32,000 nt of DNA. Source: Gemmata obscuriglobus. GTDB lineage: Bacteria > Planctomycetota > Planctomycetia > Gemmatales > Gemmataceae. The notes beneath the pieces are model-generated. The model worked only from the letters and a program-made list of their open reading frames with translations, did no database searches and had not been told where the DNA came from. Positions 8,415-29,518 of the stretch are shown here, piece by piece (positions within the stretch are counted from its first letter, which is position 1; each line of letters begins with the position of its first letter). A program made the position numbers and the translations under genes. Location of the stretch: the NCBI RefSeq assembly GCF_008065095.1, contig NZ_CP042911.1, forward strand, positions 3,630,001 through 3,662,000, written 5' to 3'.

Positions 8415-11400
8415 ATGGCGATCGATAAGCCGGTTCTGTGGGGGGCGGACGGCAACCCTCTTTCCCAAGAGGGGGCGCTGCTCTCCCCGAACGCCCTGAA
8501 CGTCGCCCAGGTCATCCAGAACGCCGGGAAGATGTACTCGCACACGTGGGACGAGGCGATGCGGGACGCCCCGCAGAACGCCCTCGCCATGCGGCGCGAC
8601 CCGTTCTACCGGTCGATGCTGCAAGAGCGGACCTCGCCGACGCAGAACCTCGACTGGGAGGTGGCGGTTCCGAACGAGGACGATCCGGTCCACCGGTTGC
8701 AGCGGGACACGCTCCAACGCGCGTGGGAGGAGCTTCCGGACAAGCCGAACCTGATGTACTCGCTCCTCGACGGTGCCCTTTGGTGGGGGCGGTCCGGTCA
8801 GCAGGGCATGTGGGGCCAGAGCGACAGCGGGCTCACGAACTGGCTGTACCACGAGCCGGTCCACGGCGACTCGATTCAGCACCAGTGGGACCGCACGCCC
8901 GTCATTCTCGTGTCGTGGCAGGCGAAGCAGAAGTTGGAGCGGGACGACCCCGAGTGCATCATCAGCTCGTCCACCCGCGGGGCGTACGGGCTGCGGCTGT
9001 ACAAGCCCGAGTACCGCAAGCGGTTTATCCTCCACACCCACGTTCGTGAGGCGTCGGACTATTACGAAGGTGAGATGGCGGGCGGCGTCCACGGCGTCGG
9101 GCTCCGCTCGTGGGCGTACTGGGGCGATTACGTCCGCCGCGACATCCTCGCGGCGATGCTCGGGTTCATGAACTCGACCGGGATGATGGACCTCGTCATC
9201 ATCAACTACCCGGACGGCAACGTCGAGGCCGAAAAGCGGGCGATCGCGAACGCCAAGAAGATCAGCGGCAAGCTCGTGCTCATCTGCCCCCGCGACCCGT
9301 CGAAGGACTGGCCCGCGGTCGAACAGGTGCCGATGAACACCGCCGGCGTCGAGGTGGTGCAGAACCTGCTGGAGAACTACTTCGACCGTTACACGCGGGA
9401 GCTGTTCGTCGGGCAGAACATGAGCAACGGCGGCGGCGGGCCGGGCGGGCTGGAGGGCGATGGCCGCGCCGAACTGGCCGGCGATACCAAGTTCCAACTC
9501 TGCAAGACGGACGCCCGCCGCTTGGCCGAGACGCTCACGCGGGACTGGCTCGTCCCGTGCCGGGATTACAACTTCCCCGGCTCGAAGGTGCCGGTGACGA
9601 TGAAGCCCATCCTGGCCGATCCCAAGGCCAAGGAGAAGGCACAGAACATTAGCGTCTGCGTCGCCAACGGCATCGAGATCGAGGAAGACGAGGCACGCCG
9701 GGCGTTGGGCTTCTCGAAGCCGCGAGAGGGCAAGAAAACGATCGGGGCGAAGCCGGCGGCCGATCCGACGAACCCGACCGCACCACCGGGCGACGGCGGG
9801 GCGGTCGCGCGCCCACCCCAGCCCCCGAAGCCGGACGGCGGGCACGACCTCGCGACCGACTTCCTCCAGCGGATCGGGCGGCTGGAAGATCTGCTCATGT
9901 ACCGGCTGAACCAGCCGCCGTGGCCGGGTGCGGTGTTCGACGAACAGCGCCACCGCTGGGTGAACAAGGACGGCAGCGACGGGCCGCAAGGTGGTCGCGC
10001 GACCACAGCCGGGAACGGTAACGGCCAACCGGCCCCGCAGCTCGGCGACGCGGACCGGGACGACATCGCCAACGGCATCGACGCCGACGTGCGGGCCTGG
10101 AAGGGTGAGGAGATCCCGCCCGGACTCGTGCAGCGGGCGAAGGACGTGGCACTGACGATTGCGGCCAAAACCTACATCTGGGCGACGCAGGCCACGCACT
10201 CGAAGGCAATGGCGACGCTCGGCGAGGTGATGGGGGCCGTGTTCGACACGCCGGCCGACATGATGAAGTTGGGGTACAACCCGTCCACGTCGAGCGGCAC
10301 GTCCGGTGCGGGCGTGGCCGATCCGGTCAAGGCGAACCTGAACGACGCGTTCGGCGTCGGCGTGTCCGGTCACCTCGTCGCGTCCGTCGCGTCGAAGGTG
10401 CTGGTGAAGGCGGCATATTGGGTGCGGAACCGGACGCAGAAGGGCGAGCAGCCGACCGCCCTCTCTTTGGTGGCGTTGCTGTACGAAGGCGACCAAGAGC
10501 CGGACGGGTTCTTCGAGTGGGCCGAGTTCATCGCGACCGTGCTTCAGAGGACCGCAAAGGGGATCGGCAGCGACGCCCAGATGCCGGACGCGGCGACCGT
10601 CGAGCGGAACCTGCGGGCGCTGGTGGAAGAACGCCAGAAAGCCGAAGGGGACGACGACCTCACCGGGTACGCGTGGGACGAATCGCAGGTCAAGCGGGAC
10701 GGGGACGGTCAGTTCGCCCCGAAGAACGGTGGGGAGTACGGACCCGACCACCCCCGCACCCGCAAGGGGCGGCCGGTGCCGCGGTCCGCAATCCGTCTGG
10801 CCGCCACCTCCCCGGACGATGCCGACGAGATCCGCAAGCGGTTGAGCGTTCCGGCCGAACGCGAGAAGTTCGACGCGGCGGTCAAGGCCGAGAAGCGACG
10901 GATCGGTGACGCCCGCCGCAAGAAGCGGCTCGACCTCGCCGGCAAGGCCGCCGCCGCCGAAGGCGACCGGATCGGCAAGATGCCCGCCGCGGCCCGCCGG
11001 CTCAAACTCGACGGACTCGCGGCCGAACTCTCGCAGGCGGCGAACGCGATCCGATCGGCCCACACGGTCAAGCAGGCCAAGACCGAACTCAAAGCGGTCA
11101 AAAAGCGAATCGCGACGGCCGCCAAGGATGTTCGCAAGGCGTTCGGGGAAGAGGCAACTCGGTACGCCGGAACACTCGGCGTACCGGACCGGATTGCCAA
11201 GGAGATCGGTCGCGGCATCGCGTCGGCCGCCAAATACGACAACGTTCCGCCGCTACCAACGGACGCGATCGAAGACGCTCTGGGCGAAGTAAACTCGGCA
11301 TGGAGCAGCGGTCGCCGACGCGACGCCTTGAAGAACCTGACGGACGCGTTCGACGCGTCACTCGACACCTCTCGTGTTGCGGCGGCCGTTAAGGATTGGG

Positions 11401-19914: not shown

Positions 19915-20397
19915 GTGGACGACGACACCGAACTCCTCATTCTGCGGCGACGGCGGCAACAGAAACAAGCCCGCCGACGCATGATCTTGCTGGCCTCACT
20001 CGCCGGCGTCGGGGCCGTACTCCTCCTCGCCATCGTCGTCGTCGCAGGACGAGCCGGAAGCGGGCGCGCGACCACAAACGTGTTGGGGGGGCCGTCCAAC
20101 CACGCCGAACTGGCCGATTTGCTGCGATCGAAGGGTCTCCAGGTCAGCTACGAATCTGCTGGCCCGTTGATTGATCGCCCGGAACGTCCGACGTCCATTT
20201 TCACGATCGATGTTGCAGGCAAGCGTGGTCTATTAATGGTGCATCTGAACAAGAGCGAATCGGCTGCACGCGAGCAAGTCGCCACGATGGGTGGCAACGG
20301 GTTCGCGTGCAGCCGATTCGCTCTTGAAGTGTGGATGGCAGATGAAGAGTCGAAGTCTGTATTCCTGCAAGTAAAACGAACACTGGGCGTCAACTGA
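19915..20397 (+). CDS. membrane-anchored hypothetical protein
   Basis: GTG 19915 lies 6 nt after GGAGGA, within ORF 19849..20397. One TM helix (ILLASLAGVGAVLLLAIVVVAG). Confidence 0.5.
   Translation: MDDDTELLILRRRRQQKQARRRMILLASLAGVGAVLLLAIVVVAGRAGSGRATTNVLGGPSNHAELADLLRSKGLQVSYESAGPLIDRPERPTSIFTIDVAGKRGLLMVHLNKSESAAREQVATMGGNGFACSRFALEVWMADEESKSVFLQVKRTLGVN
20060..20075. repeat. palindrome copy (14/16), in CDS
   Basis: gcgggcgcgcgaccac; read as SGRATT. Confidence 0.7.
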
Positions 20398-20407
20398 GAG
20401 GACGCCC
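20385..20407. terminator. hairpin spanning the convergent stops of genes 19915..20397 and 20390..21472
   Basis: gggcgtc-aactgagag-gacgccc; no U-tract. Confidence 0.25.
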
Positions 20408-21472
20408 GCCACTCGGGTACACGTGACCAGAGCGGCTGGCAGCGATCCGAGCTGTAGCGGCCATGCGGCCCAGCTCTGCGTCGATCCGAGCCGCCTCTCG
20501 CTCAATTCGCTCCGCATCAGCAGCAATCCCAGTAGACGCTGCCTTCTTGGATTCTTCTTCGCTCTTCTTTTTCTGCCTGTCGAGCAGCAGACCCATTACT
20601 CCGGCGGTCTTCAGTACGGGCGAGTTCGCAATTGCCTCTGTTGCGGCACTGATGATCCGCAGTGGGGGCACCAGGAGATCGTTCAGGAGAGCCAAAATCT
20701 CGTTCTTGGTGTTCGCCAAGACATTTTCTAAACCTTCGCTTGCGTCCTTGCGACGCTGTTCCGATTTTGCCAGTACGCCCGTCGAGCCCGCCTGAGCGTT
20801 GCCCTGCCGCCGGTCGCGCAACATCTCTTGGATGTCGCGCTGGGCAAGGACGGCCGCCATCGGTCCCGACACTTCCGCCAGCTTCCGGGCAGCGGCGATC
20901 TGCTCATCCGTAGCCTGGATGACAGCCTTTTTAAACTGGTTGAGGGCGTCCCCGACTGCGACAATGGCCCCGATCGGCCCGGCCAGACGGGCGAGACCCG
21001 CCGCCCCGCCAGTGAGTCCGCCCAGACCCGTCGGCCCCTTCCCACCCAGAAACTCGCCCACACCCTTAGTTGCGTTCGCGGACGCTTTACCGAACCGCGA
21101 GTTGTTCCAGAGCCTACGGAGGAACCCCGGCTCTTCTTCCTTTGGCGTTGTTGGCTTCGGCGGCCCTGGTAGTCCGCCCTGACCGGGCAGTCCGCCCACG
21201 ATCGACACCTGGAGCGGCTTTGGCCCCACGACGATCACCGATTGCGGGCGGTCGAACGCCGACACGACGCCGTTCTGCTCGCGGGCCGTGGTCGCGTGCT
21301 CGTGCTCCAGGGCGATCTCGCCCGGAAGAGCGATGATTGACTTGTGCAAGTCTTCGATCGCAAAAGACAGCGCCGCTTGGCTCGCGGCGGCCACCGTTTG
21401 CGACACCTTCGAGACATCCACCAAATCTCCCAGCGACTTGATGACATCATCGAGAGTCGAATCCCCGCCCAT
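20390..21472 (-). CDS. tape-measure-like protein (short, 360 aa)
   Basis: Minus-strand ATG 21472 preceded by AGGAGAAGG. Gly-rich hydrophobic segments (GLGGLTGGAAGLARLAGPIGAIVAVGD). Position after the chaperone. Confidence 0.5.
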   Translation of the reverse strand: MGGDSTLDDVIKSLGDLVDVSKVSQTVAAASQAALSFAIEDLHKSIIALPGEIALEHEHATTAREQNGVVSAFDRPQSVIVVGPKPLQVSIVGGLPGQGGLPGPPKPTTPKEEEPGFLRRLWNNSRFGKASANATKGVGEFLGGKGPTGLGGLTGGAAGLARLAGPIGAIVAVGDALNQFKKAVIQATDEQIAAARKLAEVSGPMAAVLAQRDIQEMLRDRRQGNAQAGSTGVLAKSEQRRKDASEGLENVLANTKNEILALLNDLLVPPLRIISAATEAIANSPVLKTAGVMGLLLDRQKKKSEEESKKAASTGIAADAERIEREAARIDAELGRMAATARIAASRSGHVYPSGGRPLS

Positions 21473-21483
21473 AACCTTCTCCT

Positions 21484-21499
21484 GTGGTCGCGCGACCAC
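21484..21499. repeat. palindrome copy (16/16)
   Basis: Between the GT-frame stop (21502-21504) and minus-strand ATG 21472. Confidence 0.95.
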
Positions 21500-21501
21500 C
21501 T

Positions 21502-22049
21502 TCAGCCCCGACCACTGATAGCCTCAACGACACATGCTGCGATGCTCTCGTAACGGGCCACCGCCGCTTCCTCTACTCGCTTGCGACCGGCCCAGACGCC
21601 GACGAAGGTGCGGTAGGGGAGTCGAGCGGGATCGAGGGCGAAGCCCGCGGCGGCGAGATCGAGAAAGGGCGGGCACTTGCGGCGAGTTGCTGCAAGAACG
21701 CCAGGAATCTGAACAGCACAAGCAGTCGCTCAGCTTCCGTCAGTCCGGCCGCCCCGTCCAGCGGTCGCAGCCCGAACATGGCGTCCGCGGCCTTGACGAG
21801 TGCCGTCACTGCGTCCGCTTTCTTCTGCTTCATGTCGGCGGCGACGGGCGTACCGGCCATTGCGGCGGCGAGGTCCGCCGGCACCTCGTGCGCGAGCACC
21901 CGGAGCCGATCCTCGTAGTCCGGGCACGATTCTTCGAGGACCCGGCCCGCAACCATCGGATCGGCCCGCCGTGTCGCGGTGCCGTCGAAGTACGCGAAGA
22001 TCTGCCGCTGGTGGTCACGCGACCACCAGCGGCGAAGGAAACCGAACAT
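21502..22049 (-). CDS. tail assembly chaperone, -1 frameshift fusion (GT-like), predicted
   Basis: The -1 frame is open from the slip site (21663-21669) to TGA (21504-21502). It has no start codon of its own. It encodes the protein-like sequence LDLAAAGFALDPARLPYRTFVGVWAGRKRVEEAAVARYESIAACVVEAISGRG. Confidence 0.5.
21573..22049 (-). CDS. tail assembly chaperone (G-like, 0-frame product)
   Basis: Lies between the tube-like and tape-measure-like genes. Contains an in-phase C_CCT_TTC slippery heptamer. Confidence 0.5.
   Translation of the reverse strand: MFGFLRRWWSRDHQRQIFAYFDGTATRRADPMVAGRVLEESCPDYEDRLRVLAHEVPADLAAAMAGTPVAADMKQKKADAVTALVKAADAMFGLRPLDGAAGLTEAERLLVLFRFLAFLQQLAASARPFSISPPRASPSIPLDSPTAPSSASGPVASE
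21663..21669 (-). other. -1 programmed frameshift slippery heptamer C_CCT_TTC
   Basis: + strand gaaaggg. The phase is exactly X_XXY_YYZ relative to the chaperone 0 frame (codons P128 F129). Confidence 0.55.
22011..22026. repeat. palindrome copy (15/16), in CDS
   Basis: gtggtcacgcgaccac; read as WWSRDH near the chaperone N-terminus. Confidence 0.85.
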
Positions 22050-22061
22050 GCTGCTACCTCG

Positions 22062-22568
22062 TTACAGGGCTCGGGTGTAGAGCGGGGTGTTGACCGCCGA
22101 AACGGTGGACGCGGGCGCGAACGGCCACGCGAAAAACGTGAGGTTCACCGGCTTGTTGCCCACGGACATCGGGATGCGGGCGTTCGGCCGGAGAACGCAG
22201 TGCAAGAACTTCCACGGGGTGTCATCGGACGCCGCAATGCCGATGGCGAAGTCGTCCCCGTTGGTTCCCACGAGTCGGCCGGGGGTGTTGAGCTGGCCTG
22301 CGGCCCCGCGGTTGCCCCGGTTGAGCACCTTGGTCAGGACGGCCGGGTCGATACTGATGAGCGGGCAGGTGATCGTCGCCACCTCCCCGAAGTCTTGAAG
22401 CTCGTGGGGCGTCATCTCACCGAACACGTCGGAGAAGATCTCCTTGTAGTTCTTGCTGATGTCGATATCGACCCCGCCTTGGGCGTACCCGAGCATTTCC
22501 TGCGCGGCGGCCGTGCCGGTGTAGGAATACACGATCGCCGGCCCCGTCCGCCAAAAACCGACCGCCAT
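22062..22568 (-). CDS. tail tube-like protein (by synteny)
   Basis: 168 aa, first gene of the minus-strand operon, upstream of the chaperone and tape-measure-like genes. Confidence 0.4.
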   Translation of the reverse strand: MAVGFWRTGPAIVYSYTGTAAAQEMLGYAQGGVDIDISKNYKEIFSDVFGEMTPHELQDFGEVATITCPLISIDPAVLTKVLNRGNRGAAGQLNTPGRLVGTNGDDFAIGIAASDDTPWKFLHCVLRPNARIPMSVGNKPVNLTFFAWPFAPASTVSAVNTPLYTRAL

Positions 22569-22598
22569 GGCAACGCCCCCAAAAATCTAACGGCTACT

Positions 22599-22606
22599 AT
22601 ATGGTA
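22599..22606 (-). promoter_or_regulatory. CGGCCA-TACCATAT box for the minus-strand tail operon
   Basis: The minus strand reads palindrome-cggcca-TACCATAT, about 30 nt before ATG 22568. Confidence 0.4.
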
Positions 22607-22612
22607 TGGCCG

Positions 22613-22628
22613 GTGGTCGCGCGACCAC
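22613..22628. repeat. palindrome copy (16/16) in divergent intergenic region
   Basis: 17 nt before ATG 22646; 6 nt from the minus-strand TACCATAT box. Confidence 0.95.
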
Positions 22629-22645
22629 TTCCGGAGGGGGCTCAA

Positions 22646-24532
22646 ATGTCGGTCATCGAATACAACTCGATCCGGTTCCACTTCGCCAAAACCGCGAGCG
22701 TCGAGTTCGATACGTCCCGCGACAAGAGTGGCGTGGACGTGATCGCCAACACGACCACGATCCGGGCTCGCGGCGTCGCCTCGCTCACCTCGCAGGTGCC
22801 GGGCGATTCAGCCGCCTTGCTGCCCACCATCCGACACATGCTGAACATGCCCCGGCGGCGACTCCTGTATCAAGTGGGGGGATACACCATCATCTCCCAA
22901 TCCGGGATGGACGCCCAGCTCGGGCCGACCCCGGTCAAGCCCGCCACCGTCGAGCCGGCGGGCAACGGCACCTTCTTCGTGGACGTGGCGTACAAGGTCA
23001 GCACCTACGACTGTGGCGAGGCGGCCTTGTCCGACCCCGTTACCTCCCTCCGCTGGACGCAGTCCGAGAGCTTCGACGACCGCTGGTTCTCCACCATCAC
23101 CACGTCCGGCACCCTGACCGTCCGGAGCGACCTGAACCAGTGCGCCGACAACTTCCGGCAGTTGGCGACGCCCCCGATCCTCGACGACTACCAACGCGTG
23201 TCCGCCAAGTACACCCTCGCACCCGACGGGCTCAGCCTGGACTTCGAGTTCACCGACCAAGAGAAATCGCTTCTCCCCCCGTACCCGGCCGTAGTTGCTG
23301 ATGGCGATTTTAACGTCATTTGCCCGCAGAACCATAAACGCACAGGAGTAGTCACAATCACGCTCGAAGGGGCAAAGGGGTGTAGTCGGAAAGACCTGAT
23401 GTTCGTTGGGCTGCGGATGGCAATCGCGAAACTCAAAGCCGAAGGATTCATCGACGGCTCCCCTCTCATGTGGGGCAATTTCTCGGAAAATCTGTTCCGG
23501 CCAGTAGTGAAGGTAAGTGTCCAGGCACTTCTCGCCACACTCGGTGGGACTGGTTTCGCTGGTGCGGCGGCGGCTAGTCTCGGCGCCGCCGCGGCCGGGA
23601 TGAATGGCCCGGCGGTGATGCGGAGCGTCGGCTACACGCCAGGAGTGCAGGAGGGCCGGTCGGGAATCGCCCCGCCGGTCCGTAAGCGGTTGCTCGGGCT
23701 CCTGGCCGCCGCGTTCCGAGACCCATGTGCGGCCAGCGAGGGCTTCACGGCCGAGCTGCGGAACGACCGTGGCGGATCGGGGTCCAACGCCGAACTCTCG
23801 ACCGGCGGTGCGTCACTCTCCACACCGCCCGCCGAACTCGTGACCGGAACGACCGGCGGGGCCGGCACATCCCCGATCAAGGACTACGCACCGTATGACC
23901 TGTACCGCATCCAGTTCGAGTACACGCAAGATACGGGGAAGCGGGTGATGCCGGGAACCGGCGTCGGTGACACGCCCCAGCGGGGCACGGCGGTGACCGT
24001 CCACGGGGGGCAAATGTTTCTGGAGGTAAGTTGGGCATGCCAGAGAACTGGCAGGCCGCCCCAGATCCCGTCGTTCTCCGTGAACGATCCGAACCTCGTT
24101 GCCATTGGCGGGACGTGCATCCCGGCCGAGATGCAGCTTTCCGCGGACGGGAGCGCCCCGACGTATCGCGTCGCCGGCCACTACATCTATGGCGTGTTGG
24201 ACCCGTCATTGGTGTCACTCACGGCCCCGGTGCCACCATATTTCAGCGATGGCGTGCTCACCACCGCACCGAACATCGCCAACTTTACGGCCCCCGTTGT
24301 CCGGACCGGGAGCAGCGGCTCCGGGTACAGCGGTGGGGGGGACTACGGAAGCAACATCTTCGTTCCTGAGCGCGAGCCCTCGCTTTCCGTCGAGCCCCCG
24401 TCGCAATTGGACCTGTTCGGCATCCCCGGCCCGATCGGCGGCGGGTTTCCGTTCGCCGGCCCTCCGGGTGGGTTGGGCTCTGGCGATACGGGGGGCGGCG
24501 GGCTCCTTCCCACAAACCCCGTGAACCCGTAG
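22646..24532 (+). CDS. large virion (tail/baseplate-like) protein, hypothetical
   Basis: ATG 22646 follows GGAGGGGG, within ORF 22601..24532. 628 aa with a Gly-rich C-terminus. Carries two sequences homologous to array spacers. Confidence 0.6.
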   Translation: MSVIEYNSIRFHFAKTASVEFDTSRDKSGVDVIANTTTIRARGVASLTSQVPGDSAALLPTIRHMLNMPRRRLLYQVGGYTIISQSGMDAQLGPTPVKPATVEPAGNGTFFVDVAYKVSTYDCGEAALSDPVTSLRWTQSESFDDRWFSTITTSGTLTVRSDLNQCADNFRQLATPPILDDYQRVSAKYTLAPDGLSLDFEFTDQEKSLLPPYPAVVADGDFNVICPQNHKRTGVVTITLEGAKGCSRKDLMFVGLRMAIAKLKAEGFIDGSPLMWGNFSENLFRPVVKVSVQALLATLGGTGFAGAAAASLGAAAAGMNGPAVMRSVGYTPGVQEGRSGIAPPVRKRLLGLLAAAFRDPCAASEGFTAELRNDRGGSGSNAELSTGGASLSTPPAELVTGTTGGAGTSPIKDYAPYDLYRIQFEYTQDTGKRVMPGTGVGDTPQRGTAVTVHGGQMFLEVSWACQRTGRPPQIPSFSVNDPNLVAIGGTCIPAEMQLSADGSAPTYRVAGHYIYGVLDPSLVSLTAPVPPYFSDGVLTTAPNIANFTAPVVRTGSSGSGYSGGGDYGSNIFVPEREPSLSVEPPSQLDLFGIPGPIGGGFPFAGPPGGLGSGDTGGGGLLPTNPVNP

Positions 24533-24541
24533 GATGGGTTT

Positions 24542-25081
24542 CCTTCAATTCGGCCACGGGCTTACACCCGTGGAGAGCGGCCCGGCTTCGGCACCAGACT
24601 CGCCAGTAAGGCGCTTCAATTCGGCCACGGCGTTCAACCCGTGGAGACTCGGTCAGCCCGGCCGTCCCGTCCAGCGGCTTCAACCCGCTTCAATTCGGCC
24701 ACGGGTGCAAACCCGTGGAGAGGGCTGGTGACGATCGAATCGCTTCCGAAACGTCGCTGCTTCAATTCGGCCACGGGGGTCAACCCGTGGAGAGGCGACG
24801 CCCCCGATCCTCGACGACTACCAGCGGACGCTTCAATTCGGCCACGGGTGCAAGCCCGTGGAGAGACCGCTCGCCGTTCGATCGTGGCATAATTCGAGCC
24901 TGCTTCAATTCGGCCACGGAGATCAGCCCGTGGAGACCTCCCCGATACGGGACTACGCACCGTATGACCTGTAGCTTCAATTCGGCCACGGGAATCAACC
25001 CGTGGAGGTGGCTTCTTCGCTACACGGTAACACTCCGCACACGCCACTTCAATTCGGCCACGGGTGCGAATCTGTGGGGAG
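24542..25081. CRISPR. orphan CRISPR-like array, 8 repeats / 7 spacers, no cas genes in window
   Basis: 36-nt repeats at 24542, 24613, 24687, 24759, 24830, 24902, 24974 and 25046. Consensus GCTTCAATTCGGCCACGG-N7-CCCGTGGAGAG. Spacers are 35, 38, 36, 35, 36, 36 and 36 nt. The last repeat is degenerate (TCTGTGGGGAG). Confidence 0.8.
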
Positions 25082-25125
25082 CTTACCCCCGCTTGCGATC
25101 CGCCGCAACATCCGATCCGCCCGGA

Positions 25126-25308
25126 TCACTCCCGTGCGAACACGCAGCACACGAGCGCGACGAGCGTCGTGAACGTGGCGATACACGCGGCCGAGAACAA
25201 CCCGTACAGACCGCTCAGGGCGACGATCGCCCCGTACATCGCACCGCCCAATCCCTGGCGGGCGACGCGGCGGGCACGGACCAGAAAACGCGGGATGCTG
25301 ATTCTCAC
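25126..25308 (-). CDS. small single-pass membrane protein (60 aa)
   Basis: Minus-strand GTG 25308 follows CGGAG and lies 24 nt downstream of a palindrome copy. TM segment GAIVALSGLYGLFSAACIATFTTLVALVCCVF. Confidence 0.45.
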   Translation of the reverse strand: MRISIPRFLVRARRVARQGLGGAMYGAIVALSGLYGLFSAACIATFTTLVALVCCVFARE

Positions 25309-25332
25309 AGTGGGCTCCGGGTTGGGGGCGAA

Positions 25333-25348
25333 GTGGTCGCGCGACCAC
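25333..25348. repeat. palindrome copy (16/16; 20-bp palindrome 25331-25350)
   Basis: Between minus-strand genes, 24 nt upstream of GTG 25308. Confidence 0.95.
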
Positions 25349-25349
25349 T

Positions 25350-25628
25350 TCAGTTGGTGGCGTTCTTCGCGGTGCAGATCGGGCACCCCGGATCGGGGCG
25401 GTGCGGGTGCCGCGGGCAACACGTCGTCACCCGCACCGCGAACGTGCGATACCGGCACTCCTCGCAGTCGCAGTCGCCCATCGGCACGTCCCCGCGGTGA
25501 CCGCACTCGTAACAGTACGTCGGCACGTTCGCGTACACGCGGTTCAGCGTCTTGCACCACGAACACGCGGTCCGGTGGATGGTGCCGCAGACCGGCTCGT
25601 CGGTCCGCAGGGCGTGACGGTTCGGCAT
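25350..25628 (-). CDS. Cys-rich zinc-binding small protein (92 aa)
   Basis: Minus-strand ATG 25628 lies 7 nt after AAGGAG. More than 12 Cys in CxxC-type pairs (CSWC, CYEC, CDCEEC, CPIC). Confidence 0.6.
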   Translation of the reverse strand: MPNRHALRTDEPVCGTIHRTACSWCKTLNRVYANVPTYCYECGHRGDVPMGDCDCEECRYRTFAVRVTTCCPRHPHRPDPGCPICTAKNATN

Positions 25629-25713
25629 GACGGGTCTCCTTGGTTCGGTCACGCGGATGGTATCGGTTGTTGCGGAATTCCGTAATGTCAGTGGCGAGTT
25701 GTTGAACTGAAGC

Positions 25714-25986
25714 TCAGACATTCAGTGGTCGCCAGTCGCCCCACTGGTTGTTGCGTTCCATCCAGGCCGATGCGACGAACCGGCCGTCTGTCGTCCGCAC
25801 CCACACCTCGGCCCGGGGCCGTTCCCACTCGTCGTTGGCCCCGATCCACACGATGCGCCAGCCGGGCGGCATGGGGCGGATGGGGGCCGGGAAACCGTCC
25901 GGAACCCAGAACGCGTCCGCGTAAACCGGTTGGTCGGCGGCGTCCAGTTCACGAATCCACTGAGGCACTTCGGAGCAGCGGGACAC
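25714..25986 (-). CDS. Trp-rich small hypothetical protein (90 aa)
   Basis: Minus-strand GTG 25986 lies 6 nt after GGAGG and 24 nt downstream of a palindrome. The upstream part of ORF 25714..26454 reads through the palindrome and is rejected. Confidence 0.5.
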   Translation of the reverse strand: MSRCSEVPQWIRELDAADQPVYADAFWVPDGFPAPIRPMPPGWRIVWIGANDEWERPRAEVWVRTTDGRFVASAWMERNNQWGDWRPLNV

Positions 25987-26010
25987 GGGCGTCCTCCGTT
26001 GGGGATGAAA

Positions 26011-26026
26011 GTGGTCGCGCGACCAC
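26011..26026. repeat. palindrome copy (16/16)
   Basis: Between minus-strand genes, 24 nt upstream of GTG 25986. Confidence 0.95.
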
Positions 26027-26027
26027 C

Positions 26028-26330
26028 TCAGAACGCCATCTCCACAACGTCCGCCCTCCGCTTCCGCCACTCGCCCCAACTCCGCGTCCGGTGCGACCAC
26101 GTGAGCGAGTACCGCCAGTCCCGGTCGTAATACACCACCCGCAGCGAGCCCGGCGGCGTCGCCATCACGCTCACGGGAACCAGACCCCGCGGCGGGCGGT
26201 TCCGGCCCCGCGGCAACCCGTCCACCCAACCGATACCCGTCAGGTGGATCTTCCCGTTCCGCATCTCGAACGGCACCGGAGACCACTTCAGCCGATTGAC
26301 CGATTTGCGAGAATTGAGTAACGTAGACAT
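26028..26330 (-). CDS. Trp-rich small hypothetical protein (100 aa), loosely similar to the preceding one
   Basis: ATG 26330 follows GAGGTG. The stop abuts palindrome 26011-26026. Confidence 0.55.
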   Translation of the reverse strand: MSTLLNSRKSVNRLKWSPVPFEMRNGKIHLTGIGWVDGLPRGRNRPPRGLVPVSVMATPPGSLRVVYYDRDWRYSLTWSHRTRSWGEWRKRRADVVEMAF

Positions 26331-26356
26331 CGAACACCTCTACACAGGGGTTCACC

Positions 26357-26389
26357 GGCCCCGGAGCGTGTATCAGACGCTCCGGGGCC
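26357..26389. promoter_or_regulatory. 13-bp-stem inverted repeat in the divergent regulatory gap
   Basis: ggccccggagcgt-gtatcag-acgctccggggcc. Confidence 0.4.
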
Positions 26390-26428
26390 AATTTCGTGTC
26401 GGGCAACCACCGCTCGACAGGGATACAA

Positions 26429-26469
26429 TAAGGCGACATGCCCTTGTTTGTCAAGGCGATGTCGCCTTA
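26429..26469. promoter_or_regulatory. operator-like inverted repeats upstream of the XRE gene
   Basis: TAAGGCGACAT (26429-26439) and ATGTCGCCTTA (26459-26469). Inner dyad AAGGCGA-TG-TCGCCTT at 26453-26468. TTGTCA at 26448-26453 is -35-like. Confidence 0.45.
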
Positions 26470-26487
26470 ATTCTTAGTAGGTGGGTT

Positions 26488-26757
26488 ATGGCCATCCCAG
26501 CCGTGGCGAAGAAAAACATCAGGACCGGCTTTGGGAAGCGACTCCGCGAGTTGCGGATCGACAAGAATTTGACTCAATCCCAGCTCGGTGAGCGTGCCGG
26601 GATGATGTACCAAGATGTAGCGAAACTCGAACGTGGCGAACGTGAGCCGATGTGGGCTACCGTCATTCGCTTGGCTGATGCTCTTGGCGTGCGGGCTGAT
26701 GACTTCCGCACGCTCGAAGATCCGTTGGCCGATCTCCCGGAGTTGCCGCTGGAGTGA
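26488..26757 (+). CDS. XRE/Cro-CI family HTH regulator
   Basis: In-frame ATG 26488. KRLRELRIDKNLTQSQLGERAGMMYQDVAKLERGEREP is a classic HTH_3 pattern. Confidence 0.8.
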   Translation: MAIPAVAKKNIRTGFGKRLRELRIDKNLTQSQLGERAGMMYQDVAKLERGEREPMWATVIRLADALGVRADDFRTLEDPLADLPELPLE

Positions 26758-26760
26758 GGA

Positions 26761-26776
26761 GCGGTCGCGCGACCAC
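26761..26776. repeat. palindrome copy (15/16)
   Basis: gcggtcgcgcgaccac; 3 nt after TGA 26755-26757. Confidence 0.9.
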
Positions 26777-26948
26777 TTCGCGTGGTGAACACATCGACAG
26801 CTTGCGTGGCGGGTTGCGGGTGCGATGATGTGGCGACCTCACGGGGTGCGTGGGGCGCGGCGTCTGCCCTCCGGTTGTCGTTTCTCGTACTAAGTGATAT
26901 CTAGACCGACTCCGGCCGACAGATTCCGGGGGCGATCCGAGTACCAGT

Positions 26949-27377
26949 ATGGCGATGCCTGCCGACCAACTGCCCGTTGGTGAGGGGCTGCTCCCGGACG
27001 GGTCGTGGGGGATGTTCTACGTCAGCCGGCCGGAGATGATCCGCCTGCGTGACAACGGCCCCCAGGAGAAGTACGAAGACGCACGCTTCCTCGAAGAGGC
27101 CGTTCGCGACCCGGATGCCATTTTCTTGGGGCTCCGGCGACCGAACCAGGACGACGCCTTGTGTTACTCTGTCTTCCTCACGTGTGACCCGGAGGAAGAT
27201 GACGAGGATTACAAGAAGCCCCCGCGGTACGGCCTCGCCTTCTTGGCGTTCGTGCGCGTCGCGAACATGGGTTGTGTAATATTCGATTGGGAGTGGCGGG
27301 AAGAAGACCCCGACCTCCCGGGCCACCCGAACAATTGGCGGAGAGACTTCGGAGAGCGTTTATGGTCCCGACCCTGA
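26949..27377 (+). CDS. hypothetical protein (cassette gene 1)
   Basis: 142-aa ORF with mixed codon bias. Overlaps the next gene by 16 nt. Confidence 0.5.
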   Translation: MAMPADQLPVGEGLLPDGSWGMFYVSRPEMIRLRDNGPQEKYEDARFLEEAVRDPDAIFLGLRRPNQDDALCYSVFLTCDPEEDDEDYKKPPRYGLAFLAFVRVANMGCVIFDWEWREEDPDLPGHPNNWRRDFGERLWSRP

Positions 27378-27748
27378 GAGAGTTCCTGAAGGCGAACCCC
27401 AGCCGGGGTTTCCGGTCGGCGCCCCAATATTTCTCTTCTGGCGACTACCTCACGTACTTCATTGAGGACGCCTCGCACTACGCGGAGCGGCTCGACGAGG
27501 TGCTGACCGTTTACCTTCACACCGAAACAAAGAACCTCGTCGGCGTGAAGGTGAAGGGCGTGCGGCACATCATGAAGACGGTCGATGAACTCGAACTCGT
27601 CGTGGACGGCGATTCGGTCAAGCTCGGTGTGTTCATCTTCGCAGGGGCCGCCGCCGACCGACCGGACCGGAAGGCCGACCGGTACGCCCAGCTCGTCAAG
27701 TTGAAGGACGTTCTGGTCAGCCGCAACGAACTGCCCGCAAAGGCTTGA
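27362..27748 (+). CDS. hypothetical protein (cassette gene 2)
   Basis: In-frame ATG 27362 within ORF 27272..27748. 128 aa. Confidence 0.5.
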   Translation: MVPTLREFLKANPSRGFRSAPQYFSSGDYLTYFIEDASHYAERLDEVLTVYLHTETKNLVGVKVKGVRHIMKTVDELELVVDGDSVKLGVFIFAGAAADRPDRKADRYAQLVKLKDVLVSRNELPAKA

Positions 27749-27799
27749 TCGGATCAAACAATTCTCGGATCGAACCCCGCGACCACTTCGGGGCCGGTC

Positions 27800-27991
27800 A
27801 TGCGTCGCTGGGTCGAACACCGCCTCTACGTTCTGGATCGCGTGACGGGCGACCCGTTCTGGGGCCGGGTGTTCGCGGGCGTGCTCGTTGCCGTCCTCGC
27901 GGCACTCCTGATTTACCGCGGGTACGTTCAACCCCGGGTGGGCGCGCGCCCACCCGATCGGGTTCCGGCGGCCGGGCCGGGCGTACAATAA
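27800..27991 (+). CDS. small membrane protein (63 aa)
   Basis: TM segment VFAGVLVAVLAALLIY. Contains the symmetric palindrome variant. Confidence 0.4.
   Translation: MRRWVEHRLYVLDRVTGDPFWGRVFAGVLVAVLAALLIYRGYVQPRVGARPPDRVPAAGPGVQ
27938..27953. repeat. symmetric palindrome variant GTGGGCGCGCGCCCAC, in CDS
   Basis: T5->G and A12->C together keep perfect dyad symmetry. Confidence 0.7.
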
Positions 27992-27995
27992 AAGC

Positions 27996-28226
27996 ATGGC
28001 GACGACGATCGAGGATGTGCTGGCGGTGCTGGCGAAGAACGCCAAGCGAATGAGGGGCGACCGGACGCAAGCCGACCTCGCGGAGGCGAGCGGTTTGACG
28101 GTCTCGCAGATCTCGCAGATCGAGAGCGGGAGGCCGGAGAACCCGCCGTCCGTGCGGACGCTCGTGGCCCTGGCGAACGGGCTCGGGGTGGACGTGTCGG
28201 AGCTGCTCAAGCGGGCGGCGGGGTAG
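27996..28226 (+). CDS. XRE family HTH regulator
   Basis: RMRGDRTQADLAEASGLTVSQISQIESGRPENP is a classic HTH_3 pattern. 76 aa. Confidence 0.8.
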   Translation: MATTIEDVLAVLAKNAKRMRGDRTQADLAEASGLTVSQISQIESGRPENPPSVRTLVALANGLGVDVSELLKRAAG

Positions 28227-28527
28227 CATCCCTCTTTTGGCGTTCGACCCATTTGTCGATCCGGACCGTGTTGCCGTCCGCGTCGTAAACGTACCCGCCG
28301 CGGGCAACGGCCCCCGGCTTGTAAACCGGATCGTGCCCGCCTTGGGTGCGTTCGGAGATCGGCTCGTGCAGCCCCGCCGCGATCATTTCCAGCCGCACCG
28401 ACTTCACCACCGGCCGCGAACACCCGCACTCCTTCGCCACGTCCCGGTCCGACAGCGACTGGTTCTTCTTCGACCGCAGGAACTTCCGCACCCGCAGTCT
28501 CAGCCCCAGATTCTTGTGACCCGCCAT
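28207..28527 (-). CDS. putative HTH DNA-binding protein (106 aa)
   Basis: Minus-strand ATG 28527 follows GAGGAG. SLSDRDVAKECGCSRPVVKSVR is HTH-like. Convergent with the XRE gene and overlaps it by 20 nt. Confidence 0.5.
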   Translation of the reverse strand: MAGHKNLGLRLRVRKFLRSKKNQSLSDRDVAKECGCSRPVVKSVRLEMIAAGLHEPISERTQGGHDPVYKPGAVARGGYVYDADGNTVRIDKWVERQKRDATPPPA

Positions 28528-28540
28528 CGGAACTCCTCGA

Positions 28541-28556
28541 CTGGTCGCGCGGCCAC
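28541..28556. repeat. palindrome copy (14/16)
   Basis: ctggtcgcgcggccac; 13 nt upstream of minus-strand ATG 28527. Confidence 0.75.
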
Positions 28557-28645
28557 CTCCAACCGTATTCGATGGCACGATGAGCACATTGAACCACATT
28601 GGGCACACTTCCAGTAAGTGAACGGGCGTGTAAGTCGGGCGGAAA

Positions 28646-28661
28646 GTGGTCGCGCGGCCAC
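28646..28661. repeat. palindrome copy (15/16)
   Basis: gtggtcgcgcggccac; in the long non-coding gap. Confidence 0.85.
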
Positions 28662-29164
28662 CGCTCGGGAGGAAAATTCGCGAGCGGTCGGGGCAGGGTG
28701 CCTACTGTAATTTGCCGGCCGCGTGTCGGCCGAACAGCCTCAGAGTGGCAAACCGTGTGCGTCCCGAACGGGCCAATAGTGGGCATCGGGGCGACCCGTT
28801 TCAGTGGTGGCTCGGACCGGCCAATCGACAGCTTAACGGCTGCACGACGCCGGGTTAACCGGCCGGGGCAACCCGGGGCGTCAACGGACCGCCCCCGCAA
28901 CCGAAAGGTTGGGCACTTCACCTGAGACGTGAGGGGCTTGCTGACGGAACCCGCGATGCGTCCGGACGGTCCGACGCGGCGGCCGACTTTCTCGTAACGC
29001 CGAGGCACCGGTCGCTGACCGGTGGCCGGGACGGACGGGCACGTCCATTCCGGACATTGCGGGGCGTTTAACAAATACTGCGGGGGATAAGAGGGGTCAT
29101 TGTGTGCCCGCTCACGTCGTCCGCAGGTGCCGCTGACTAACGCCAGAGGAAGGAAGGGTGCCGT

Positions 29165-29464
29165 ATGCCGCGTCCGGCCGACCGCAAACCGAAGGCGAAG
29201 AACGCGAAGCGGGTGGACCCGACGAAAACGGTCCTGACCGCGACGGACGGCGAAGCCCTGCCGGTCGCGAGCGGGCTGGGGCTGTACCTGCTGCTCGAGG
29301 GGCCGGTGGTGAACCGCCGGTGGCGGGTGTACGACCGGGCGACCGGGGCGTTCCTCGCACGAGCGGACCCGCAAGGTGGTCGCGCGACCGGCCCGCGGAT
29401 CGGCACCCTGACCGGCGGCTGGCGGGAGCTGCTCGCGGAGATCCGGAAGCGAACCGGAGCCTGA
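29165..29464 (+). CDS. hypothetical basic protein
   Basis: ATG 29165 follows GGAAGGAAGGG. 99 aa. Confidence 0.5.
   Translation: MPRPADRKPKAKNAKRVDPTKTVLTATDGEALPVASGLGLYLLLEGPVVNRRWRVYDRATGAFLARADPQGGRATGPRIGTLTGGWRELLAEIRKRTGA
29376..29391. repeat. palindrome copy (14/16), in CDS
   Basis: gtggtcgcgcgaccgg; read as GGRATG. Confidence 0.7.
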
Positions 29465-29488
29465 CTTCTCTGGCGTTCCTGACGTAAG

Positions 29489-29504
29489 GTGGTCGCGCGA
29501 CCAC
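29489..29504. repeat. palindrome copy (16/16)
   Basis: Intergenic; 6 nt before the TACCATAA box. Confidence 0.95.
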
Positions 29505-29510
29505 CGGCCC

Positions 29511-29518
29511 TACCATAA
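29511..29518 (+). promoter_or_regulatory. CGGCCC-TACCATAA box
   Basis: palindrome-cggccc-TACCATAA, 33 nt before ATG 29552. Confidence 0.4.

What the first reader, a model, noticed from the sequence alone, without database searches (positions are those of the whole stretch)
24542..25081. Repeats keep stem and flanks but differ in the 7-nt loop; orientation clue ATTGAAGC
The 18-nt 5' part (GCTTCAATTCGGCCACGG) and the 11-nt 3' part (CCCGTGGAGAG) are almost invariant. The central 7 nt differ in nearly every repeat: GCTTACA, CGTTCAA, GTGCAAA, GGGTCAA, GTGCAAG, AGATCAG, GAATCAA, GTGCGAA. The CCACGG(G)/(C)CCGTGG stem is preserved, and R3 forms an 8-bp stem with a GCAA loop. Normal arrays are homogenised, so loop-only variation suggests selection on hairpin structure with relaxed homogenisation, as expected for an orphan or old array or for repeat mimics. 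Read on the minus strand, the repeat ends ..CCGAATTGAAGC, which resembles the ATTGAAA(C/G) 8-nt handle of many Cas6-processed repeats. In that orientation the self-mismatches of spacer 4 fall at crRNA positions 1, 2, 3 and 6. Four of the seven self-mismatches of spacer 2 fall at positions 4, 7, 8 and 9. Both clusters would be in the seed, which would spare the element itself. The spacer 6 mismatches are distal. However, the degenerate terminal repeat at 25046 argues for + orientation, so the orientation is unresolved.
Basis: partly seen in the sequence, partly recalled or inferred. Interest (0 to 1): 0.7.

Follow-up and report, generated by a model that had tools for sequence, protein, structure and literature searches.

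The report
Prophage CRISPR array with variable hairpin loops
A phage-like element in the Gemmata obscuriglobus chromosome carries a cas-less, leaderless type I-G CRISPR array of eight repeats that keep every position the Cas machinery should need but each have a different hairpin loop, whereas host arrays of the same repeat family have uniform loops.

Summary
There are eight 36-nt repeats and seven 35-38-nt spacers at 24542-25081. All eight 7-nt loops differ, while the other 29 positions are almost invariant (loop 21/56 mismatches to consensus, rest 9/232; p = 1e-10).

The repeat belongs to a large family found next to type I-G cas genes (Cas3g, Csb1, Csb2, Cas4g/Cas1g) in Planctomycetota metagenome contigs. 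In 53 such arrays with at least 5 repeats, 1204 of 1209 repeats carry their array's modal loop.

The orientation is resolved. The host leader, the cas operon direction and the published I-G repeat geometry all make the window's minus strand the crRNA sense: 5'-CUCU-stem-loop-stem-CCGA|AUUGAAGC-3'.

The window is Gemmata obscuriglobus DNA. The array has no cas genes and no host-type leader. It is packed between convergent genes of a phage-like element. Three spacers are near-copies of the element's own adjacent genes.

Best reading: an old, static, phage-borne I-G array, kept under selection as a crRNA source against related phages, whose unconstrained loops have drifted. This is a new member of a known kind with one unusual property.

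The parts
24542..24577 (-). Repeat R1. + strand: CCTTCAATTCGGCCACGG GCTTACA CCCGTGGAGAG. It is the trailer-end repeat in crRNA sense. Its loop is the reverse complement of the R5 loop plus 1 change.
24578..24612 (-). Spacer S1 (35 nt). It has a weak 25/35 match to the same site of the 169-aa gene homologues in L003/L004 and L008/L009, with a TTG or TTA flank on the PAM side. It has no match in the window.
24613..24648 (-). Repeat R2, loop CGTTCAA, 6-bp stem.
24649..24686 (-). Spacer S2 (38 nt). It is 31/38 identical to the window's own 21736-21773 and to L006:1030-1067.
24687..24722 (-). Repeat R3, loop GTGCAAA, 8-bp stem.
24723..24758 (-). Spacer S3 (36 nt). No match found.
24759..24794 (-). 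Repeat R4, loop GGGTCAA. This is the loop closest to the array consensus.
24795..24829 (-). Spacer S4 (35 nt). It is 31/35 identical to the window's own 23165-23199. All 4 mismatches fall at crRNA positions 1, 2, 3 and 6.
24830..24865 (-). Repeat R5, loop GTGCAAG.
24866..24901 (-). Spacer S5 (36 nt). No match found.
24902..24937 (-). Repeat R6, loop AGATCAG.
24938..24973 (-). Spacer S6 (36 nt). It is 32/36 identical to the window's own 23869-23904. The mismatches are PAM-distal.
24974..25009 (-). Repeat R7, loop GAATCAA. The 3' end on the + strand is GGT instead of GAG.
25010..25045 (-). Spacer S7 (36 nt). No match found.
25046..25081 (-). Repeat R8, degenerate (ACTTCAATTCGGCCACGG GTGCGAA TCTGTGGGGAG). 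It is the first repeat in crRNA sense. Its hairpin folds only as + strand RNA, through G.U pairs (-11.7 versus -3.8 kcal/mol).
21736..21773 (+). Self site resembling S2, inside the minus-strand 158-aa gene (21573-22049). The flank on the PAM side reads TTC in crRNA sense. Seed mismatches fall at positions 4, 7, 8 and 9.
23165..23199 (+). Self site resembling S4, inside the 628-aa gene. The PAM-side flank reads ACA, which is not TTN.
23869..23904 (+). Self site resembling S6, inside the 628-aa gene. The PAM-side flank reads CGG, which is not TTN.
22646..24532 (+). 628-aa gene of unknown function (GobsT_31070 / WP_010036750). It ends 10 nt before R1, holds the S4-like and S6-like sites, and has homologues in Gemmata prophage-like regions.
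25126..26330 (-). Four called small genes (86, 92, 90 and 100 aa) on the array's crRNA-sense strand. The last one ends 44 nt upstream of R8. Read-through from this operon is the likely source of array transcription (inferred).
   Evidence: gene calls mapped to the window; (no family hits)
26488..26757 (+). XRE-family HTH regulator, divergent from the small-gene operon (an immunity or early-region-like arrangement).
8637..8671 (+). Site in the Mu-type portal gene matched 30/35 by a spacer of a 23-repeat metagenome array of the same repeat family (L017 spacer 7). The PAM-side flank reads TTC.

Best explanation
This is a genuine CRISPR array of a type I-G repeat family. It is carried without cas genes and without a leader by a phage-like element integrated in Gemmata obscuriglobus.

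The functional strand is the window's minus strand. Each repeat reads 5'-CUCU / CCACGG(G) / loop / (C)CCGUGG / CCGA | AUUGAAGC-3'. By analogy with the characterised I-G system, Csb2 of a resident I-G system would bind the hairpin and cut 4 nt 3' of the stem. This would give crRNAs with an AUUGAAGC 5' handle and the hairpin at the 3' end (inferred, not shown here).

The array is probably transcribed by read-through from the small-gene operon upstream on that strand (inferred).

At least three of the seven spacers derive from relatives of the element's own neighbouring genes. The element's own copies differ in the seed or lack a TTN flank. The likely role is therefore to turn the host's I-G interference against related, competing phages while sparing the carrier (inferred; known for virus-borne mini-arrays).

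The loop heterogeneity follows from two things that are shown here:
- In this family the loop is the part that varies freely between arrays.
- Host arrays stay uniform, most simply because they keep renewing from the leader-proximal repeat, whereas this array has no leader and is static.

Its repeats are therefore old copies. Substitutions, and probably hairpin flips, have accumulated in the loop, while changes in the handle, linker, stem and 5' tail were removed by selection.
For: Array anatomy and statistics.

Next to such arrays lie:
- Cas4g/Cas1g (NF049935, 664 bits).
- Cas3g (TIGR02621, 721 bits) with its I-G extension.
- Csb2 (TIGR02165).
- Csb1/Cas7g (TIGR02570).
Planctomycete-specific domains are present on array contigs.

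Orientation:
- The leader motif CGCTCGCnTCnTAA...CGAGCGG flanks the GCTTCAAT-3' side in most host arrays examined, about 15 of 20 aligned.
- Degenerate or partial repeats lie at the other end (L037, L052, L082).
- L065 shows cas genes, leader and array co-oriented.
- The published I-G repeat is 36 nt with a 7-bp stem, is cut 4 nt 3' of the stem to give an 8-nt handle, and Csb2 binds the hairpin (PMC9638904).

Homogeneity of host arrays: 1204 of 1209 repeats are modal. Host spacer lengths (mode 37, 96% within 34-40) match the window's 35-38.

No leader and no cas genes.

Phage context: Mu-type portal, superinfection-immunity domain, XRE regulators, and homologous gene modules next to integrases in Gemmata sp. 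G18.

Spacer origin and mismatch placement. The same pattern, identity followed by divergence at the crRNA 5' end, appears in an independent viral array (L013 spacer 2).

A host array spacer matches this element's portal gene 30/35 with a TTC flank.

Hairpin flips occur within otherwise uniform arrays (L012, L013, L027).

Seven of the eight repeats fold into the hairpin.

A preprint on a Bifidobacterium-type I-G system reports that altering the stem-loop does not abolish Csb2 cleavage (bioRxiv 10.1101/2022.08.19.504415). This fits a loop that is not read.
Against: - No expression or processing data are available.
- Whether G. obscuriglobus itself has I-G cas genes was not determined. It is not among the best 120 Cas4g/Cas1g relatives.
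- No perfect target for any spacer was found. S3, S5 and S7 have no match at all.
- The nearest homologue of the target gene from any other element is only 63% identical at the protein level.
- PAM evidence is mixed: TTC at the S2 site and at the portal site, but CTG and GGG for two other host spacer-target pairs.
- R8, which would be the first repeat transcribed, has a broken stem on the minus strand and folds only as + strand RNA.
- No promoter-like site was found.
- Loop similarity does not decay with distance along the array. Two loop classes are interleaved, and adjacent repeats are no more alike than distant ones (permutation p = 0.59). A simple history of sequential duplication followed by drift does not predict this.
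- Partial self-matches could trigger primed adaptation against the carrier, which would be a cost.
- The invariance of CAATTCGGCCACGG and CCGTGG across the metagenome arrays was imposed by the search pattern. It is not independent evidence of constraint.
Confidence: 0.6

Rival explanations
1. Loop diversity is selected rather than merely tolerated. One version: non-identical repeats shorten the longest shared stretch between repeats (24 nt between R3 and R5, typically 18-20 nt, instead of 36). This would protect a static array in a recombination-prone phage genome from deletion. Another version: the variety lets the array be read by the diverged Csb2 proteins of several hosts.
For: All 8 loops are distinct, whereas host arrays are 99.6% modal. 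Adjacent repeats are never of the same sequence and the two loop classes interleave. Ten of 27 arrays with 2-4 repeats are also heterogeneous, including all three multi-repeat IMG/VR arrays. The 4-nt tail, which varies between host arrays, has stayed nearly uniform here while the loops diverged. The loop therefore changes faster than another position class that is variable between arrays.
Against: There is no direct test. The loops are still related to each other (mean pairwise distance 3.86/7 against 5.18 for shuffled loops), as expected from drift away from one ancestor. Small arrays at contig ends are partly truncated host arrays, so the 10/27 figure is not a clean virus-versus-host comparison.
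Confidence: 0.15
2. It is an RNA anti-CRISPR (Racr-like) decoy. The transcript presents eight Csb2-binding hairpins that soak up host I-G proteins, and the spacers are irrelevant filler inherited from a captured host array.
For: Phage repeat mimics keep the Cas6-binding hairpin (PMC10651486). Solitary units of this same repeat family occur on viral or MGE-like contigs: L010, L061 (which is itself targeted by two host arrays), and the tRNA clusters in L080 and L045. The conserved positions are the same ones a decoy would need.
Against: There are seven spacers of canonical I-G length. At least three derive from the element's own gene family. The S4 mismatches cluster in the seed (4 of 35 positions all within the first 6; chance about 3e-4 for that end). 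That clustering is expected for guides that must spare the carrier, not for filler. The 8-nt handle, which was dispensable for RacrIF1 activity, is also invariant here.
Confidence: 0.12
3. It is a chimaera. Repeat-spacer units were imported by recombination from several host or phage arrays that share flanks but differ in loop, so the loops mark separate origins rather than in-place divergence.
For: Among host arrays with the same flanks and tail, loops differ from array to array; six loop types share the tail AAAC. The two loop classes are interleaved with no distance decay.
Against: None of the window's eight loops was seen in any of the 124 other loci. Eight separate donors would be needed. 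The tails are nearly uniform and the loops are mutually related.
Confidence: 0.08
4. It is a dead fossil: an array captured long ago that no longer does anything in G. obscuriglobus.
For: There are no cas genes, no leader and no promoter-like site. R8 is decaying. No perfect targets are known. An I-G system in this host has not been shown.
Against: A fossil should decay evenly. Here the loop carries 18/49 changes and the other 29 positions carry 5/203 in R1-R7 (p = 1.4e-10), and seven of the eight hairpins are intact.
Confidence: 0.05

Closest known systems
Virus-borne mini-CRISPR arrays used in interviral conflicts (Saccharolobus portogloboviruses SPV1/SPV2; Medvedeva et al. 2019, PMC6858448; reviewed in PMC11656645)
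   Same: The array is cas-less and sits on a viral element. It depends on the host's Cas proteins. Its spacers come from relatives of the carrier virus, and the carrier's own copies are mismatched.
   Different: There are seven spacers instead of one or two. The host is bacterial (Planctomycetota) and the system is type I-G. The repeats are not identical to each other, and no identical host repeat was found, whereas mini-arrays are described as carrying repeats identical to the host's. No perfect target is known.
Chromosomal type I-G CRISPR arrays (Thioalkalivibrio sulfidiphilus and Geobacter sulfurreducens systems; PMC9638904)
   Same: The repeat is 36 nt with a roughly 7-bp stem, a 4-nt linker and an 8-nt ATTGAAxC-type handle. 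Spacers are 35-38 nt. The same repeat family lies next to Cas3g, Csb1, Csb2 and Cas4g/Cas1g in metagenomes.
   Different: There are no adjacent cas genes, no conserved leader and no repeat homogeneity. The array is embedded between convergent genes of a phage-like element.
RNA anti-CRISPRs / solitary repeat units (Racr; Camara-Wilpert et al. 2023, PMC10651486)
   Same: These are repeat copies on a phage that keep the Cas6-type hairpin. Solitary units of this very family exist on other MGE-like contigs.
   Different: Here there is a regular eight-repeat array with canonical spacers of recognisable origin. The handle is conserved as well as the hairpin.
Degenerate terminal repeats and orphan arrays of host genomes
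   Same: Repeats that are no longer renewed accumulate substitutions. R8 looks like an ordinary decaying terminal repeat.
   Different: The decay is not spread over the repeat. It is confined to the loop in all eight repeats.

Membership tests
CRISPR array | Direct repeats of constant length, regularly interspaced by unique spacers of similar length | tested here: met
   Eight repeats of 36 nt and seven spacers of 35-38 nt. No spacer resembles another spacer.
CRISPR array | Spacers match mobile genetic elements | tested here: met
   S2, S4 and S6 are 82-89% identical to genes of the carrying phage-like element, against a null maximum of 69%. S2 also matches a relative, L006. No perfect match was found.
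CRISPR array | Adjacent cas genes | tested here: not met
   None of the roughly 45 ORFs scanned in the window, nor the called genes on L002 and L140, has a Cas domain. The rest of the G. obscuriglobus genome could not be searched.
CRISPR array | Leader next to the first repeat | tested here: not met
   A profile built from 14 host leaders gives no hit next to the array. Only 44 nt separate R8 from the upstream called gene.
Type I-G repeat family | The same repeat occurs in arrays adjacent to type I-G cas genes | tested here: met
   L059 has Cas4g/Cas1g. L065 has Cas3g with its extension, Csb2 and Csb1 next to a 51-repeat array.
Type I-G repeat family | 36-nt repeat with a roughly 7-bp hairpin, followed by 4 nt and an 8-nt handle (Csb2 cuts 4 nt 3' of the stem) | tested here: met
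   The minus-strand reading fits in seven of the eight repeats. The geometry comes from PMC9638904. Cleavage itself was not tested.
Type I-G repeat family | TTN PAM on the 5' side of protospacers | tested here: inconclusive
   TTC at the S2 sites and at the portal site, and TTG/TTA at the weak S1 sites. CTG and GGG for two host spacer-target pairs, and ACA and CGG at the S4 and S6 self sites.
Type I-G repeat family | Processing into crRNAs by Csb2 and loading into Cascade | not testable with these tools
   This needs small-RNA-seq or biochemistry.
Virus-borne mini-CRISPR array (interviral conflict) | Carried by a virus or provirus that lacks cas genes | tested here: met
   Mu-type portal, superinfection-immunity domain and XRE regulators. 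The homologous module lies next to integrases in Gemmata sp. G18. The window is G. obscuriglobus chromosome.
Virus-borne mini-CRISPR array (interviral conflict) | Repeats identical to those of the host's own arrays | tested here: not met
   The repeats differ from each other, and none of their loops was found in 124 other loci. The host genome's own arrays could not be read.
Virus-borne mini-CRISPR array (interviral conflict) | Spacers target closely related viruses | tested here: inconclusive
   The spacers are near-copies of the carrier's own genes and of homologues in relatives. No relative with a perfect protospacer is in the collections searched.
RNA anti-CRISPR (Racr / solitary repeat unit) | Solitary or few repeat units without functional spacers | tested here: not met
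   The array is regular, with seven spacers of canonical length and recognisable origin.
RNA anti-CRISPR (Racr / solitary repeat unit) | Inhibits the cognate CRISPR-Cas system | not testable with these tools
   This needs an interference assay.

The most novel reading that the evidence does not exclude
The loop diversity is an adaptation. Making every repeat different in the one segment Csb2 does not read is what allows a leaderless array to persist in a phage genome, either by resisting repeat-repeat recombination or by working across hosts with diverged Csb2.

The same I-G repeat unit is also used outside arrays. This includes a copy conserved in the apical loop of the host 6S RNA in a Fimbriiglobus lineage, which would point to cross-talk between the I-G RNA-binding subunit and non-CRISPR RNAs.
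Probability: 0.15. Interest if true: 0.7.

Novelty: new member of a known kind. Interest (0 to 1): 0.45.

Why it matters
The eight repeats act as a natural mutational scan of a type I-G repeat. The handle, the 4-nt linker, the 6-7-bp stem and the 4-nt 5' tail are held, and the loop is free. This gives a concrete prediction for how Csb2 and Cascade recognise the repeat.

The case also shows what happens to a CRISPR array once leader-driven turnover stops. That bears on how repeat uniformity is maintained in ordinary arrays.

It extends virus-borne arrays aimed at related viruses to Planctomycetota and to type I-G. The organism, Gemmata obscuriglobus, can be grown, and work on genetic tools for Planctomycetes has been published (PMC4910669). 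Expression, processing and interference are therefore directly testable.

Tried and rejected
- **Rfam.** There is no family hit in the window at gathering thresholds, and no CRISPR-DR or other credible hit in 24000-25700 at E up to 10.
- **Host-type leader right of R8.** MAFFT suggested a faint resemblance, but a leader profile gives no hit there. The idea was dropped.
- **Relatives of the element.** There are none in IMG/VR by protein and none among GenBank phages by protein or DNA. Homologous modules in Gemmata sp. G18 and in Logan contigs (L003-L009) carry no such repeats.
- **6S RNA as the origin of the repeat.** The one genome hit lies in a 6S RNA gene. However, 20 other solitary-unit loci have no 6S match, and BLAST with the 6S flanks finds nothing else. 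The 6S case is a separate side observation.
- **Diversity-generating retroelement.** Spacer-to-self differences are not adenine-specific. Rejected.
- **Tandem duplication of repeat-spacer blocks.** The spacers are unrelated to each other. Rejected for the window, although it does occur in L088, L126 and L054.
- **Protein-coding repeat.** The periods of 71-74 nt are not multiples of 3, so the repeats fall in different frames. Rejected.
- **Assembly artefact.** The array is identical in five records from different projects. Rejected. One caveat remains: short-k assemblies can only cross arrays whose repeats are non-identical, so such arrays are over-represented inside long contigs.
- **PAM as an orientation test.** The results were inconsistent.
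- **R1 as a flipped R5.** The match is 7/8, but the chance of such a match among the pairs is about 0.1 by my estimate. It is only suggestive.
- **Limitation of my own making.** It therefore missed host-type arrays (GCCGTGG) in reference genomes.
Full report
**What is there.** Between 24542 and 25081 lie eight 36-nt direct repeats separated by seven unique spacers of 35-38 nt. The repeat has three parts:
- an 18-nt 5' part, GCTTCAATTCGGCCACGG;
- a 7-nt central segment;
- an 11-nt 3' part, CCCGTGGAGAG.

The other 29 positions are nearly fixed. Mismatches to the consensus are 21/56 in the loop against 9/232 elsewhere (Fisher p = 1.4e-10). Leaving out the degenerate last repeat, the figures are 18/49 against 5/203. 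The 17-mer core occurs eight times in the window, against 0.17 expected, and nowhere else in it.

**Where the window comes from.** The window's ThyX, XRE regulator, portal and 628-aa proteins are exact matches to proteins of Gemmata obscuriglobus. The NCBI contig ABGO01000025.1 is 100% identical to window 20319-32000. The surrounding genes are phage-like:
- a Mu-type portal (8415-12512);
- a superinfection-immunity domain protein (19196-19897);
- an SNF2 helicase fused to a methylase, a DnaN clamp and a sigma factor;
- two XRE regulators and ThyX.

Homologues of the four-gene block next to the array lie beside integrases in two places of the Gemmata sp. G18 genome. The array region is identical in five independent records, so the loop differences are not an assembly artefact.

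**What kind of repeat it is.** No Rfam family matches. Many of these are long arrays of up to 78 repeats. Next to such arrays lie type I-G cas genes:
- Cas4g/Cas1g (NF049935, 664 bits) on L059;
- Cas3g (TIGR02621, 721 bits) with its I-G-specific extension, Csb2 (TIGR02165) and Csb1/Cas7g (TIGR02570) on L065.

Other array contigs carry planctomycete-specific domains. The closest Cas4g/Cas1g relatives that carry a name are from Gemmataceae MAGs. Host spacers are mostly 36-39 nt, like those in the window. The array therefore belongs to a type I-G repeat family of Planctomycetota.

**Orientation.** Most host arrays examined share a conserved flank (CGCTCGCnTCnTAA, about 40 nt, then CGAGCGG) on the side that follows the ...GGAGA end of the GCTTCAAT reading, about 15 of the 20 aligned. 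Partial or mutated repeats sit at the opposite end. That flank is therefore the leader, and transcription runs from it.

In L065 the cas genes, the leader and the array are co-oriented, and on that strand the repeat reads ...CCGTGGCCGAATTGAAGC. The characterised I-G system has a 36-nt repeat with a 7-bp stem. Csb2 cuts it 4 nt 3' of the stem to leave an 8-nt handle, and Csb2 stays bound to the hairpin (PMC9638904).

Read on the window's minus strand, the repeat has exactly this layout: CUCU, stem CCACGG(G), loop, stem (C)CCGUGG, CCGA, then AUUGAAGC.

The degenerate R8 is then the first repeat, not the last. On the minus strand its stem is broken (-3.8 kcal/mol). As + strand RNA it still folds through G.U pairs (-11.7 kcal/mol). 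I read this as ordinary C-to-T decay. It remains a point against the minus-strand reading.

**Is the loop heterogeneity unusual?** Yes. In 53 arrays with at least five repeats, 1204 of 1209 repeats carry their array's modal loop. Forty-nine arrays are completely uniform and none has more than two loop types.

Between arrays the loop differs freely: 31 distinct consensus repeats were seen, and six loop types share one and the same flank and tail.

Arrays of two to four repeats are more often heterogeneous (10 of 27), including all three multi-repeat IMG/VR arrays. In three arrays (L012, L013, L027) one repeat carries the exact reverse complement of the loop of its neighbours. Flipping of the palindrome is therefore a recurrent mutation in this family.

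One caveat applies. The invariance of the 14-nt and 6-nt blocks across metagenome arrays was imposed by the search pattern. Only the within-window conservation is independent evidence of constraint.

**Context of the array in the element.**
- R1 starts 10 nt after the stop codon of the 628-aa gene on the + strand.
- R8 ends 44 nt from a called 86-aa gene, the last of four small minus-strand genes. This operon diverges from an XRE regulator at 26488.
- There is no room for a leader, and a profile of host leaders finds none.
- No promoter-like or terminator-like site was found.
- No Cas domain was found in the window or in the extra 2.5 kb available to the right.

The array is thus cas-less and leaderless. 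If transcribed in the crRNA sense, it would most simply be transcribed by read-through from the small-gene operon. This step is inferred.

**The spacers.** S2, S4 and S6 are 82-89% identical to sites 0.6-2.9 kb to the left in the same element. Shuffled spacers reach at most 69%. S2 matches the minus-strand 158-aa gene. S4 and S6 match the 628-aa gene.

S2 also matches the homologous gene of a relative (L006). S1 weakly matches one and the same site of the 169-aa gene in two relatives. S3, S5 and S7 have no match.

In crRNA sense the mismatches are distributed as follows:
- S4: all at positions 1, 2, 3 and 6, and the flank is ACA.
- S2: seed mismatches at positions 4, 7, 8 and 9, with a TTC flank.
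- S6: distal mismatches, but the flank is CGG.

With the TTN PAM reported for type I-G (cited in PMC9638904), each self site would be spared for one reason or the other.

An independent viral array (L013) shows the same pattern. Its spacer matches the carrier for 25 nt and then diverges at the crRNA 5' end. One host-array spacer (L017) matches this element's portal gene 30/35 with a TTC flank, so I-G hosts do target this phage group. PAM evidence is nevertheless mixed: two other host spacer-target pairs have CTG and GGG.

**Most likely mechanism.** The array is a static, phage-borne I-G array. Its transcripts would be processed by the Csb2 of a resident I-G system and used against related phages, as described for virus-borne mini-arrays (PMC6858448, PMC11656645).

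Host arrays stay uniform because each acquisition copies the leader-proximal repeat and old units are lost. Without a leader this array does not renew, so its repeats are old. Changes survive only where the Cas proteins do not read the RNA. Comparison between arrays, and one preprint on Csb2 substrate requirements, point to the loop as that place.

What is shown:
- the family assignment;
- the orientation in host arrays;
- the uniformity of host arrays;
- the absence of leader and cas genes;
- the skew of substitutions toward the loop;
- the origin of three spacers.

What is inferred: transcription, processing, interference and the competitive role.

**What does not fit neatly.**
- The loops fall into two related groups, GTGCRAx (R3, R5, R8, and perhaps R1 as a flipped copy) and xxxTCAR (R2, R4, R6, R7). 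These groups are interleaved along the array.
- Adjacent repeats are no more alike than distant ones (permutation p = 0.59). Sequential duplication followed by drift would predict the opposite.
- The 4-nt tail varies between host arrays but has stayed nearly uniform here while the loops diverged.

These points leave room for three alternatives: loop-specific hypermutation, selection for non-identical repeats, or some import of units by recombination. The Racr-type decoy reading is less likely because of the regular, canonical spacers of recognisable origin and the conserved handle. A pure fossil is unlikely given the skewed substitution pattern.

**Not determined.** I could not establish whether G. 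obscuriglobus has an I-G system. It is not among the best 120 Cas4g/Cas1g relatives. My one genome scan used a pattern too specific to pick up host-type arrays.

**Verdict.** It is now sharpened in three ways: the type is I-G, the crRNA sense is the minus strand, and the carrier is a prophage-like element of G. obscuriglobus. It is a new member of a known kind, a virus-borne cas-less CRISPR array. Its loop-only divergence in every repeat is an unusual and informative property that I did not find described in the paper library searched.

Noticed in passing
L001:5078-5308 (-), L134:1550-1780 (+), L135:1541-1749 (+): A full type I-G repeat unit sits, in crRNA sense, in the apical loop of the 6S RNA gene of a Fimbriiglobus MAG (Rfam 6S, 53.5 bits) and of a related genome (55.7 bits; MetH 90% identical). 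In both, the 6S apex is expanded by 41-45 nt and reads UUUUCCACGG-loop-CCGUGGCCGAAUUGAAGUUAG. The stem and flanks are identical in the two genomes and the loops differ. A third relative (MetH 87% identical) has a short apex without the unit. All three share the synteny TPP enzyme / 6S / metH. No paper linking 6S RNA and CRISPR repeats was found.
   Followed up: partly
L080:850-876, L045:2336-2363: Solitary units of the same repeat family lie inside dense tRNA gene clusters (17 and 8 tRNA-type hits on 3.5 kb and 7.9 kb). In L080 the GCTTCAAT reading is on the same strand as the tRNAs, and in L045 it is on the opposite strand.
   Followed up: no
L012:1193-1300, L013:1313-1479, L027: Within otherwise uniform arrays, one repeat carries the exact reverse complement of its neighbours' loop: CTGTGCAG/CTGCACAG, CGGTCTG/CAGACCG, and TGAGACA x19 with TGTCTCA x1. 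The palindromic hairpin has been flipped.
   Followed up: partly
L013:355-390 and the L013 array at 1313-1479: An IMG/VR viral mini-array has a spacer identical to its own contig for 25 nt. It then diverges over the 11 nt at the crRNA 5' end. This is the same self-sparing pattern as spacer S4 of the window.
   Followed up: partly
window 8637-8671: A spacer of a 23-repeat metagenome array (L017, Ga0163155_10102071) matches the Mu-type portal gene of this element at 30/35, with a TTC flank on the PAM side.
   Followed up: yes
L061:154-188, L061:2841-2876, L061:3221-3248: A metagenome contig that carries a solitary repeat unit is itself matched by spacers of two host arrays of the family (L092 32/35, L019 34/36). 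The flanks are GGG and CTG, not TTN.
   Followed up: partly
L088:506-680, L126:2654-2758, L054:23-276: Small arrays in which repeat plus 'spacer' has been tandemly duplicated, so the spacers are near-identical to each other. These are not products of ordinary spacer acquisition.
   Followed up: no
window 30709 (end of Logan contigs L002 and L139): Two independent Logan assemblies give contigs of 38,620 and 38,621 bp. Both stop at the same base, 71 nt into the thyX gene, while the chromosome sequence continues. This may mark an end of the element or a repeat boundary.
   Followed up: no
window 279-2561 and 2886-4139: The element encodes an SNF2-type helicase fused to an N6/N4 DNA methylase, followed by a DnaN sliding-clamp homologue and a sigma-70-type factor (5561-6124). 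This is an unusual replication and modification set for an element with a Mu-type portal.
   Followed up: no
L059:855-1465: A small gene pair, not family-scanned, lies between cas2 and a two-repeat leaderless remnant array on a type I-G locus. By position it recalls the toxin-antitoxin pairs noted inside the T. sulfidiphilus I-G locus (PMC9638904).
   Followed up: no
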